9,473 bases of DNA from a virus (lineage: Duplodnaviria > Heunggongvirae > Uroviricota > Caudoviricetes). Positions 2,053-2,920 of this stretch are shown here, piece by piece; the first letter of the stretch is position 1, and every line of letters begins with the position of its first letter. The stretch spans positions 1 to 9,473 of the IMG/VR virus record IMGVR_UViG_2703718801_000021. One strand, written 5' to 3'. The notes below the pieces were generated by a model that worked only from the letters and a program-made list of their open reading frames with translations, searched no databases and had not been told where the DNA came from. A program made the translations under genes and the position numbers.

Positions 2053-2139
2053 TTATCCCCAGCGGAAAAGCGAATACAGAATAAATGCCACCGCTATTGC
2101 AACTCCAACTGCGGTGAATGCTTCAGGCCAATTCATCAT
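2053..2139 (-). CDS. Hypothetical 28-aa hydrophobic peptide (MMNWPEAFTAVGVAIAVAFILYSLFRWG), single-TM-like
   Basis: ATG at 2139..2137 overlaps the TGA stop of the DUF551 gene (ATGA arrangement) and sits 5 nt after AGGAGGTG. The central stretch AVGVAIAVAFILYSLF is uniformly hydrophobic. Confidence 0.3.
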   Translation of the reverse strand: MMNWPEAFTAVGVAIAVAFILYSLFRWG

Positions 2140-2726
2140 TTCACCTCCTGCGGCGGTTCTGGTAGCTGCATCCAGTGGGTTACCTCTTTGAGATACAGGT
2201 CTTCGCCATCACCGTCATCCCAAGTGGGCTTGCCATCATTAAACCAGTCGCCATATACGCCGACCTGAGTGTTGGGGATGTTTGGTGGGTAGTTGTTTTT
2301 AAAGTCAGCTGCTAACACATAGCATTGTCGCTCTCCCATTTCAGGCATTCGCTCACTACAGCTTATCCAACCATCCGGAGTTGCCGGATAGTTGCCATTC
2401 ACAAGGTCAGCTCGAACATATAGCGTGTCATCATGGTGTTGATTGTGGCTGCACCACGTTAATTCGCTTAACTCGCCATCTTCTGGCCATACTCCAGCCG
2501 TTTGCAGCCAGATATGGGCTGGCGCATCTTGGCAAGGTGTATTAACTGGCAACTTGTAAGTTTGGCTTACAGGTTCTGCACTATCAGCCTTGCGGCGCTC
2601 CTGTAGCTCGCGCAGAGCCGCTACAACATAATGGCTATTGTGCTGGTCAGCCCACAGAATGAGCCGAATCAACGTTGCATTTGAAACGTATTCGTCTGTT
2701 AGTTTGCTATTGGTAAAAGTGGTCAT
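2136..2726 (-). CDS. DUF551-family phage protein, 196 aa
   Basis: The C-terminal region ending ..YLKEVTHWMQLPEPPQEVK matches the THWMPLPEPP-type ending I recall for DUF551 proteins of enterobacterial prophages. ATG at 2726 is preceded by AAGGTGA with a 7-nt spacer. Confidence 0.75.
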   Translation of the reverse strand: MTTFTNSKLTDEYVSNATLIRLILWADQHNSHYVVAALRELQERRKADSAEPVSQTYKLPVNTPCQDAPAHIWLQTAGVWPEDGELSELTWCSHNQHHDDTLYVRADLVNGNYPATPDGWISCSERMPEMGERQCYVLAADFKNNYPPNIPNTQVGVYGDWFNDGKPTWDDGDGEDLYLKEVTHWMQLPEPPQEVK

Positions 2727-2728
2727 AG

Positions 2729-2920
2729 CTATTTCACCTTAATCTCAACATTTCGCAGCTTTAGCTCTACTGGCAGGTCTGACTTTCCTGTTAATGCTAA
2801 TGCGAGATTTTCTGGAGTAATGAGAACAGTTATTGTTTTCCCCCTCGCCAGACGAATAATCATGCGTATCTCGCTATCGTCACATGCTCCTGGTCGAACA
2901 ATTGAGATTTGTCCGTTCAT
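2729..2920 (-). CDS. Hypothetical protein, 63 aa (MNGQISIVRPGACDDSEIRMIIRLARGKTITVLITPENLALALTGKSDLPVELKLRNVEIKVK)
   Basis: This is the internal ATG of ORF-track entry 2729..3082; the longer form would overlap the upstream gene. ATG at 2920..2918 is preceded by GGAGAGTGAG and sits 2 nt after the upstream gene's TGA stop. No recognised family. Confidence 0.5.
   Translation of the reverse strand: MNGQISIVRPGACDDSEIRMIIRLARGKTITVLITPENLALALTGKSDLPVELKLRNVEIKVK

What the first reader, a model, noticed from the sequence alone, without database searches (positions are those of the whole stretch)
2136..2920. DUF551 protein with an upstream 63-aa partner of unknown function
The 196-aa protein carries the DUF551-type C-terminal signature (..THWMQLPEPP..), for which I know of no characterised function. 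It is tightly packed with a 63-aa gene upstream (2-nt gap) and a coupled hydrophobic peptide downstream. The arrangement looks like a small functional cassette inside the accessory region.
Basis: partly seen in the sequence, partly recalled or inferred. Interest (0 to 1): 0.4.

Follow-up and report, generated by a model that had tools for sequence, protein, structure and literature searches.

The report
Mosaic DUF551 prophage accessory gene neighbourhood
This is an ordinary, already catalogued stretch of early accessory genes of a lambda-like E. coli prophage: a small 63-residue gene, a patchwork protein ending in the uncharacterised DUF551 domain, and a tiny membrane peptide, which sit together because of conserved gene order, not because they form a dedicated unit.

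Summary
Window 2136-2726 (-) encodes a 196-aa protein with a full-length DUF551 domain (PF04448, E=3.4e-20). A 63-aa gene lies 2 nt upstream (2729-2920). A 28-aa hydrophobic peptide gene overlaps its stop by 4 nt (2053-2139).

All three are real, conserved genes. The stretch is 99.8% identical to phage BP-4795 ORF4-6 and matches HK620 hkaF (63 aa) and hkaE / P22 EaA-type proteins. All are annotated "unknown".

The "functional cassette" reading is not supported:
- Tight spacing is general in this pL operon.
- 63-aa homologues sit without DUF551 in lytic phages, next to VRR-NUC or RecE-like nuclease genes.
- Only 4 of 72 EaA-type genes have the 63-aa gene upstream.
- DUF551 is equally frequent behind the 63-aa gene (58/80) and behind other genes (50/68).

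The 196-aa protein is a three-module mosaic. Its DUF551 domain has a hypervariable core (at least 17 types) between two DNA linkers conserved even at synonymous sites, the signature of recombinational module swapping.

Function stays unknown. My best guess is that these are non-essential early modulators of host or phage development, by analogy with Ea22_V2 and YfdS. Low novelty, low-to-moderate interest.

The parts
2136..2726 (-). 196-aa EaA/HkaE-class mosaic accessory protein (BP-4795 ORF5)
   Evidence: ORF. 100% identical to BP-4795 ORF5 and to a protein on at least 1000 contigs. Homologues are annotated 'EaA protein'. 32% identity to HK620 HkaE, through the shared linkers.
2553..2726 (-). 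N-terminal module (aa 1-58): two predicted helices plus the linker ADSAEPVSQTYKLP. It is one of at least 7 interchangeable N-modules.
   Evidence: Alignment A2 shows two alleles of residues 1-45. phrog_12449 and phrog_6847 match only residues 1-71. The alternative N-modules are listed. Helices 11-28 and 31-48 come from a low-confidence model.
2373..2552 (-). Middle module (aa 59-118), acidic and Trp-rich (VNTPCQDAPAHIWLQ...YVRADLVNGN), no Pfam family. It is swappable with at least 3 unrelated modules.
   Evidence: Near-invariant within its type in A2, and replaced in P0200 and P0215. Also replaced in HK620 HkaE and in other loci. pI 4.39.
2139..2372 (-). DUF551 domain (aa 119-196), acidic, with a hypervariable core between conserved ends
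   Evidence: PF04448, E=3.4e-20. 17 core types in about 175 loci. pI 4.0-4.9 in 13 of 14 variants.
2343..2393 (-). 5' DNA linker of the DUF551 cassette (encodes NYPATPDGWISCSERMP)
   Evidence: Mean nucleotide identity of 91% between loci whose cores are unrelated (56%, near the level expected for unrelated sequences). Synonymous sites are conserved too.
2136..2180 (-). 3' DNA linker of the DUF551 cassette (encodes THWMQLPEPPQEVK*). It contains the Shine-Dalgarno sequence AGGAGGTGA and the ATG of the peptide gene.
2729..2920 (-). 63-aa basic (pI 9.5) beta-rich protein, HK620 HkaF family (BP-4795 ORF6; phrog_1222)
   Evidence: phrog_1222, E=5.9e-41. 96 homologues of constant length. 90.5% identity to hkaF. 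AF2 model with pLDDT 82.7 and strand-strand-strand-helix-strand order. No fold match. Against Dhillonvirus there are 33 synonymous and 22 non-synonymous codon differences.
2053..2139 (-). 28-aa single-pass hydrophobic peptide gene, not annotated in BP-4795
   Evidence: ORF. Homologues of 48-100% identity in 99 phage records, including 933W and Av-05. dN/dS of 0.13 and 0.09 in comparisons with Av-05.
2918..2933 (-). Gene-boundary linker: Shine-Dalgarno AAAGGAGAG (which encodes the Ea22 '+GE' tail), then TGA, 1 nt, and the ATG of the 63-aa gene
2922..3635 (-). Context: 237-aa Ead/Ea22-like protein (HK620 HkaG / P22 EaD type) immediately upstream
   Evidence: PF13935, E=1.7e-31. 49% identity to HkaG over the N-terminal half.
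1881..2048 (-). Context: 55-aa DUF4222 protein immediately downstream of the peptide
   Evidence: PF13973, E=4.7e-15. Travels with the peptide gene in a subset of loci.

Best explanation
Shown:
- The region is part of the early-left (pL) accessory region of a BP-4795-like lambdoid prophage. It lies between the recombination genes and xis/int, the equivalent of the lambda exo-xis region or the P22 'ea' region.
- It holds three independent, conserved genes: an HkaF-family 63-aa gene, an EaA/HkaE-class 196-aa protein built of three swappable modules ending in DUF551, and a 28-aa membrane peptide.
- The genes are chained for translational coupling, because each gene's 3' end encodes the ribosome-binding site of the next.
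- These conserved gene-boundary and intragenic linkers are where homologous recombination reshuffles the modules. That produces a stable slot order without functional interdependence.

Inferred:
- The 196-aa protein is a non-essential early modulator. A helical N-terminal module probably oligomerises it. The acidic, Trp-rich middle and DUF551 domains bind a host or phage protein partner, not DNA.
- It would tune host physiology or the lysis-lysogeny outcome, like the two studied DUF551 carriers. One is Ea22 variant 2 of Stx phages, where deletion of ea22 in Phi24B shortens latency and raises burst size. The other is YfdS of CPS-53, linked to H2O2 tolerance; it can replace YfdT in the inhibition of DnaA-dependent initiation by YfdQ and YfdR.
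- The 63-aa basic protein acts separately, most likely in phage DNA recombination or replication, because that is where its homologues sit in lytic phages.
For: Identity and context:
- 99.8% nucleotide identity to BP-4795 ORF4-6.
- The same gene order in HK620, hkaG-hkaF-hkaE.
- EaA annotations of homologues.
- No promoter or terminator signal in 1300-4300.

Module structure:
- A2 alignment and 60 distinct architectures.
- Linkers 91% (5') and 78% (3') identical at nucleotide level around cores that are 56% identical.
- A dATP/dGTP pyrophosphohydrolase (PF04447) occupies the middle slot in some relatives. DUF551 is fused to Ead/Ea22 in others (P0151, P0160, P0161; 933W Ea22).

Independence of the genes.

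Acidity: pI 4.0-4.9 for DUF551 variants and 4.6 for the whole protein. The literature also describes Ea22 C-terminal domains as acidic (PMC10834534).

Experimental analogies:
- Phi24B carries Ea22 V2, which has DUF551 (PMC10834534).
- The Phi24B ea22 deletion shortens latency from 135 to 85 min and raises burst size from 25 to 110 (PMC7093339).
- YfdS (PMC4776307).

The 63-aa homologues overlap by 4 nt a VRR-NUC gene in Dhillonvirus and an exoVIII gene in SU57, and follow RdgC in Rosenbergiella.
Against: - No experiment addresses this protein, or any EaA-type protein that lacks the Ea22 coiled coil.
- The Ea22 phenotypes have not been mapped to DUF551.
- The structure model of the 196-aa protein failed (pLDDT 38.5), so neither the oligomerisation nor the binding role has structural support.
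- The placement of the 63-aa gene near nucleases is association only, and its fold matches nothing known.
- The co-occurrence counts come from the 80 best IMG/VR hits per query. They are not random samples.
Confidence: 0.55

Rival explanations
1. The three genes (63-aa, DUF551 protein, peptide) form a true functional cassette. For example, the basic 63-aa protein binds and regulates the acidic DUF551 protein, and the peptide anchors or completes the system.
For: - In 80 of 80 lambdoid IMG/VR loci the 63-aa gene is followed after 2 nt by an EaA-type gene.
- The charges are opposite (pI 9.5 against 4.6).
- The lytic phage Av-05 keeps the order 63-aa gene, EaA-type N-module protein, peptide, with the same spacing.
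Against: - The Av-05 middle protein lacks DUF551.
- Only 4 of 72 EaA-type genes have the 63-aa gene upstream.
- DUF551 frequency is the same with and without it (72.5% against 73.5%).
- The 63-aa gene lives in replication or recombination modules of Dhillonvirus and Drexlerviridae, with no DUF551 gene in the about 3 kb examined on either side of it.
- The peptide follows a non-DUF551 gene in 933W.
- Tight spacing is operon-wide.
Confidence: 0.12
2. The DUF551 protein is a counter-defence or inter-phage competition factor. The hypervariable core would be a specificity surface under diversifying selection, exchanged between prophages through the conserved linkers.
For: - At least 17 unrelated cores between near-identical DNA linkers.
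- Strongly acidic domains, as in DNA-mimic anti-restriction proteins.
- Early expression, next to the anti-RecBCD gene abc2.
- Relatives in the same slot carry a dATP/dGTP pyrophosphohydrolase. A cited paper describes a phage enzyme of that kind as inhibiting host restriction (PMC10834534).
Against: - No match to any PADLOC model, although that library covers defence rather than anti-defence.
- No paper links DUF551 to defence.
- Mosaicism with conserved linkers is general in lambdoid early regions and does not by itself show positive selection.
Confidence: 0.2
3. The genes are decaying prophage remnants without function.
For: No assigned function. Truncated and frameshift-fused forms exist in databases. 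One locus, L077, has the DUF551 core deleted.
Against: - Intact identical copies on at least 1000 contigs.
- Constant 63-aa length across Enterobacterales and lytic phages.
- Purifying selection.
- Presence in functional phages BP-4795, HK620 and Av-05.
Confidence: 0.03

Closest known systems
Phage BP-4795 ORF5/ORF6 and HK620 hkaE/hkaF (with hkaG upstream)
   Same: The DNA is 99.8% identical to BP-4795. The order is the same as in HK620: Ead-like gene, 63-aa gene, DUF551 gene. HkaF is 90.5% identical to the 63-aa protein.
   Different: HkaE shares only the linkers and the DUF551 ends (32% identity). Its N-terminal, middle and core modules are other alleles. Beyond about position 3640 the window carries P22-type abc2 and erf-like genes where BP-4795 has exo and bet.
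P22 EaA-type proteins / Pfam DUF551 (PF04448)
   Same: A C-terminal DUF551 domain with the W...ERMP start and HWMPLPEPP end. The same position in the early-left operon. Homologues are annotated EaA.
   Different: The window protein has its own N-module allele and an unclassified middle module. I did not compare it directly with P22 EaA.
Ea22 variant 2 of Stx phages (933W, Phi24B)
   Same: It carries DUF551 behind the same NSPVTPDGWISCSERMP linker and ends in HWMPLPEPPQEV. It is an early gene of the exo-xis region and the only DUF551 protein with phage phenotypes (PMC7093339, PMC10834534).
   Different: The window's 196-aa protein has no Ead_Ea22 domain. Here the Ead/Ea22 part is in separate genes upstream (2922-3635 and 3622-4080).
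YfdS of E. coli K-12 cryptic prophage CPS-53
   Same: A DUF551 protein of a prophage accessory region, with reported host phenotypes (H2O2 sensitivity of the deletion; a role in inhibition of replication initiation by YfdQ and YfdR; PMC4776307).
   Different: I did not compare the sequences here. The neighbours differ (YfdQ; YfdR, an HD-domain protein).
Lambda Orf63 (DUF1382)
   Same: Length of 63 aa and location in the exo-xis region.
   Different: No detectable similarity. The BP-4795 Orf63 homologue is a different gene, ORF10. The window's 63-aa protein is predicted to be beta-rich.

Membership tests
Pfam DUF551 (PF04448) | HMM score above the curated gathering threshold, over the whole model | tested here: met
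   73.1 bits against a cut-off of 22, E=3.4e-20, profile positions 1-68 of 68, residues 119-193
Pfam DUF551 (PF04448) | Conserved N-terminal Trp/Pro motif and C-terminal HW-x-P-x-P-x-PP motif | tested here: met
   PDGWISCSERMP and THWMQLPEPP. The invariant columns W120, P128, W185, P189 and P192 are in A2.
EaA/HkaE class of lambdoid and P22-like early-left accessory proteins | Position in the pL operon between an Ead/Ea22-type gene and xis/int, on the same strand | tested here: met
   Window gene order. The same order in HK620 and BP-4795.
EaA/HkaE class of lambdoid and P22-like early-left accessory proteins | Sequence similarity to named members | tested here: met
   HkaE, E=4e-14. tblastn hits to CDSs annotated 'EaA protein' in PA4, PA8, JL22 and Salmonella phage 29485. 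P22 EaA itself was not compared.
Ea22 / Ead family (PF13935) | Ead_Ea22 N-terminal and coiled-coil domain | tested here: not met
   No PF13935 hit in the 196-aa protein, even at E up to 0.1. The domain is in the two upstream genes.
Lambda Orf63 (DUF1382) | Sequence similarity to lambda Orf63 | tested here: not met
   BLASTP finds no alignment at E up to 100, and there is no DUF1382 Pfam hit.
HK620 HkaF family (phrog_1222) | Full-length profile match and constant length of about 63 aa | tested here: met
   phrog_1222, E=5.9e-41, positions 1-63 of 63. 90.5% identity to hkaF. Alignment A1.
Known anti-phage defence systems (PADLOC) | Match of any of the three proteins to a defence-system model | tested here: not met
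   No hits for the 196-aa, 63-aa or 28-aa proteins at E up to 0.1.
Functional gene cassette (operational definition) | Reciprocal co-occurrence of the 63-aa gene and the DUF551 gene across lineages | tested here: not met
   In one direction, 58 of 80 genes behind the 63-aa gene carry DUF551. In the other, 4 of 72 EaA-type genes have the 63-aa gene upstream. The 63-aa gene occurs without DUF551 in four other phage or prophage groups.
Functional gene cassette (operational definition) | Physical interaction of the products | not testable with these tools
   No complex prediction was available. The monomer model of the 196-aa protein failed.

The most novel reading that the evidence does not exclude
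DUF551 may be a recombination-serviced specificity domain. Its two ends are conserved both as protein and as DNA and would act as fixed docking and recombination sites. The core between them, of which at least 17 unrelated versions circulate among E. coli and Salmonella prophages, would be swapped to track a variable host or rival-phage target. That would make EaA-type proteins a diversifying counter-defence or inter-phage competition arsenal. The 63-aa HkaF family would separately be a new small accessory factor of phage recombination nucleases.
Probability: 0.15. Interest if true: 0.6.

Novelty: already known. Interest (0 to 1): 0.2.

Why it matters
DUF551 and HkaF-type proteins are among the commonest unexplained genes of E. 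coli and Salmonella prophages, including Shiga-toxin phages, where genes of the corresponding exo-xis region affect lysogeny and induction. Parts of this 1.1-kb stretch occur in 2580 of 5426 complete E. coli genomes.

Two results are practical. First, the three genes are separable units, so they can be knocked out or expressed one at a time. Second, the module and linker map of the 196-aa protein says where chimeras could be made. Conserved peptide tails such as the Ea22 '+GE' motif and the DUF551 'PQEVK' end are probably footprints of the next gene's ribosome-binding site, not functional protein motifs. None of this changes the basic status: a known, unexplained, ordinary accessory region.

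Tried and rejected
- Structure of the 196-aa protein. AF2 on 29 aligned homologues gave pLDDT 38.5 and was unusable, so no fold search was possible.
- Sequence searches against PDB for both proteins and for a DUF551 profile gave nothing.
- NCBIfam and PADLOC gave nothing for the three genes.
- Profile search of 1.84 billion representatives with the 63-aa family.
  - Apparent fusions to Ead/Ea22 N-termini (P0218-P0220) run through the frame that is open upstream of the 63-aa start (..PLAFASKESEM). They look like frameshift or deletion products, not Rosetta-stone evidence.
  - Hits to Flg_new and RCC1 repeat proteins are sums of many weak repeat matches. The 63-aa protein itself does not hit those Pfam models, so I rejected them as noise.
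- Lambda Orf63 identity for the 63-aa gene was rejected.
- Lambda orf55 as a homologue of the DUF4222 gene showed no similarity.
- The species-level genome scan for the 63-aa family found only 2 loci, too few for statistics.
- Rfam, repeats, promoters and terminators gave nothing relevant in the region.
- Literature: only 12 held papers mention DUF551, and none gives a mechanism.

Full report
**1. What is there**

The window is the left arm of a lambdoid prophage. All genes from about 7800 down to 75 lie on the minus strand:
- integrase, 75-1361;
- a DUF1233 excisionase, 1395-1649;
- a DUF4222 protein, 1881-2048;
- a 28-aa hydrophobic ORF, 2053-2139;
- the 196-aa protein, 2136-2726;
- the 63-aa protein, 2729-2920;
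- two Ead/Ea22-like genes, 2922-3635 and 3622-4080;
- abc2 (anti-RecBCD), 4542-4838;
- further up, an S24-peptidase repressor-like gene, assigned from its sequence only.

The 196-aa protein matches Pfam DUF551 over the whole model (73.1 bits, cut-off 22, E=3.4e-20, residues 119-193). The gap to the 63-aa gene is 2 nt. The peptide ATG overlaps the DUF551 stop.

**2. It is already catalogued**

Positions 1860-2950 are 99.8% identical to Stx1 phage BP-4795, where the genes are ORF4 (DUF4222), ORF5 (DUF551) and ORF6 (hypothetical). The peptide is not annotated there. The 63-aa protein is 90.5% identical to HK620 HkaF. HK620 has the same order: hkaG (Ead-like), hkaF, hkaE ("similar to 933W L0140 and P22 eaA"), all "unknown". 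Homologues of the 196-aa protein are annotated "EaA protein" in several phage records.

An identical 196-aa protein is on at least 1000 contigs, and about 7200 homologues were scored. Parts of the 1.1-kb stretch occur in 2580 of 5426 complete E. coli genomes, but only 23 carry at least 80% of it. That already shows mosaicism.

**3. The genes are real**

The 63-aa family has 96 homologues, almost all exactly 63 aa. They come from Escherichia, Salmonella, Enterobacter, Citrobacter, Cronobacter, Tatumella and Rosenbergiella, and from lytic phages. Against a Dhillonvirus copy, 33 codons differ synonymously and 22 non-synonymously.

The peptide is found at 48-100% identity in 99 phage records. Its dN/dS against the Av-05 copy is 0.13, and 0.09 between Av-05 and 933W.

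**4. Anatomy of the 196-aa protein**

Alignment of 29 homologues (A2) and 60 distinct architectures from about 160 loci show a chain of swappable modules joined by recurrent linkers:
- An N-terminal module of about 45 aa, predicted helical at low confidence. There are at least 7 alleles, all starting M-[TN]-[TS]-[ILF]-T.
- The linker ..AEPVSQTYKLP.
- A middle module. Here it is VNTPCQDAPAHIWLQTAGVWPEDGELSELTWCSHNQHHDDTLYVRADLV, which has no Pfam family. Elsewhere there are at least three unrelated alternatives, and some relatives have a PF04447 dATP/dGTP pyrophosphohydrolase (E about 1e-41).
- The linker N-[SY]-P-[VA]-T-PDGWISCSERMP.
- A DUF551 core, followed by THWMPLPEPPQEV-[KN].

Between 17 core types, the 51-nt 5' linker is on average 91% identical in DNA, synonymous sites included. 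The 3' linker is 78% identical. The cores are 56% identical in global alignment, near the level expected for unrelated sequences. One locus (L077) has lost the core altogether, leaving only the 5' linker followed by a short QEVNQ tail. This is the signature of homologous recombination at conserved boundary sequences.

The 3' linker also holds the ribosome-binding site and start of the next gene: CCG CAG GAG GTG AAA TGA TG.

**5. Test of the cassette idea**

For:
- In 80 IMG/VR loci found with the 63-aa family, the next gene starts 2 nt (1 nt in a few loci) after the stop in nearly all that extend far enough. The junction DNA is conserved (AAGGTGAAATAGCTATGACCAC...).
- 58 of the 80 downstream genes end in DUF551, with cores 30-100% identical to the window's.
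- The lytic Vequintavirinae phage Av-05 keeps the order 63-aa gene, EaA-type N-module protein, peptide.

Against:
- The Av-05 protein has no DUF551.
- In 72 loci found with an EaA-type N-module, only 4 have the 63-aa gene upstream. DUF551 is present in 50 of the 68 others, the same rate as behind the 63-aa gene.
- The 63-aa gene sits between DNA polymerase I and a VRR-NUC gene in Dhillonvirus, overlapping the latter by 4 nt. It sits at the head of an exoVIII-recombinase-SSB operon in Drexlerviridae phage SU57. It is two genes downstream of RdgC in a Rosenbergiella prophage, and in one Tatumella locus it lies upstream of a DNA polymerase III theta gene.
- In 933W the peptide follows a 156-aa protein that is not DUF551.
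- Spacings of 1-4 nt or 4-nt overlaps occur all along the operon. No promoter-like site was found in 1300-4300, where 3.4 were expected by chance.

The samples are the best 80 hits per query, so they are not random. Even so, the asymmetry is large. I conclude that the adjacency reflects a conserved slot order kept by linker-mediated recombination, not a demonstrated functional unit.

**6. What the parts may do**

Nothing is known experimentally about this protein. DUF551 appears in only 12 papers of the held library, none with a mechanism.

Two carriers have phenotypes:
- Ea22 variant 2 of Stx phages carries DUF551 behind the same linker (PMC10834534). Deleting ea22 in Phi24B, a V2 phage, shortens latency from 135 to 85 min, raises burst size from 25 to 110 and flattens the dependence of lysogenisation on multiplicity (PMC7093339).
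- YfdS of CPS-53 is linked to H2O2 tolerance. It can substitute for YfdT in the inhibition of DnaA-dependent initiation by YfdQ and YfdR (PMC4776307).

DUF551 variants here are acidic (pI 4.0-4.9 in 13 of 14) and Trp-rich. The whole protein has pI 4.6. This argues against DNA binding and for protein binding or mimicry. DUF551 is always C-terminal and follows very different payloads: coiled coil, pyrophosphohydrolase, unclassified modules. That fits an adaptor or interaction domain.

My preferred reading is inference. The 196-aa protein would be a non-essential early modulator of host physiology or the lysis-lysogeny balance, acting through protein-protein contacts. A counter-defence role with the core as a diversifying specificity surface is the main rival. 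I cannot exclude it.

The 63-aa protein is basic (pI 9.5). Its model is confident (pLDDT 82.7; strand, strand, strand, helix, strand) and matches no known fold. Its repeated placement directly before nuclease genes in lytic phages suggests a role in recombination or replication, independent of DUF551.

**7. Side result**

The Ea22 papers note an unexplained conserved C-terminal "+GE" tripeptide. Here it is encoded by AAA GGA GAG TGA G ATG. That is the Shine-Dalgarno sequence, a stop, 1 nt and the start of the 63-aa gene.

In 75 loci every gene that precedes the 63-aa gene ends in ..KG[EKA] with a 1-nt gap, whether it is Ead/Ea22-like (60) or not (15). Lambda ea22 keeps the same 30 nt, but the sequence diverges exactly at the position of the start codon. 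The motif therefore looks like a footprint of a gene-boundary linker, not a protein feature.

**8. Verdict**

The DUF551 assignment is confirmed. The cassette interpretation is not supported. The genes are known, widespread and of unknown function, and the mosaic organisation of this region has been described for HK620 and for Ea22. Novelty: already known. Interest: low (0.2). The residual value lies in the module and linker map, in the HkaF-nuclease association, and in the open question of what DUF551 binds.

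Noticed in passing
window 2918-2933 (-); L095 (lambda) 1040-1080: The conserved '+GE' C-terminal tripeptide of Ea22 proteins, called of unknown significance in PMC7093339, is encoded by the Shine-Dalgarno sequence AAAGGAGAG of the downstream 63-aa gene. All 75 genes that precede that gene end in KG[EKA], whatever their family. Lambda keeps the 30-nt linker but diverges at the start codon.
   Followed up: partly
window 2053-2139 (-): A 28-aa single-pass hydrophobic peptide gene (MMNWPEAFTAVGVAIAVAFILYSLFRWG) is under purifying selection (dN/dS 0.09-0.13). It is not annotated in BP-4795. Homologues occur in 933W, just upstream of hokW/sokW, and in the lytic phage Av-05.
   Followed up: partly
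window 2922-3635 (-), residues 126-224: The C-terminal half of the 237-aa Ead/Ea22-like protein matches the PADLOC model PDLC02890 'DpdH' (E=1.6e-36, profile positions 13-111 of 127). So this Ea22-type C-terminal module is shared with something filed under the dpd defence system.
   Followed up: no
window 2921-3082 (-): The reading frame of the 63-aa gene stays open for 54 codons upstream, overlapping the 3' end of the Ead gene. Databases hold 'fusion' proteins (P0217-P0220, P0012) that enter this frame (..PLAFASKESEM..). These are apparently frameshift or microhomology-deletion products that join Ead/Ea22 N-termini to the 63-aa domain.
   Followed up: partly
L167, L074, L012 and L180 (3196-4266): Some proteins in the same EaA slot carry a PF04447 dATP/dGTP pyrophosphohydrolase as their middle module (E about 1e-41), with or without DUF551 behind it.
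   Followed up: partly
window 3563-3648 and 4008-4093: An 86-nt direct repeat (73% identity) covers the 5' ends and ribosome-binding regions of the two tandem Ead/Ea22 paralogues.
   Followed up: no
window about 3640-5900: The window departs from BP-4795 upstream of the Ead gene. It has P22-type abc2 (4542-4838), and I read two further ORFs (4862-5335 and 5245-5880) as SSB-like and Erf-like. That reading was not tested with a domain search. BP-4795 has orf61, orf63, orf60a, exo and bet in that position.
   Followed up: no
P0235, P0249, P0258, P0260: The 63-aa family profile gives multi-stretch hits to large Flg_new (Listeria-Bacteroides repeat) and RCC1 repeat proteins. I judged them to be repeat-amplified weak matches, but a distant relation to the InlB B-repeat type of domain was not formally excluded.
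   Followed up: partly
L180 (CACSKA010000005.1): An assembly labelled Chryseobacterium sp. 18061 carries an enterobacterial-type prophage segment: a YfdR-like HD protein, a coiled-coil protein, a 64-aa HkaF homologue, and an EaA-type protein with PF04447. This may be contamination or a mislabelled record.
   Followed up: no
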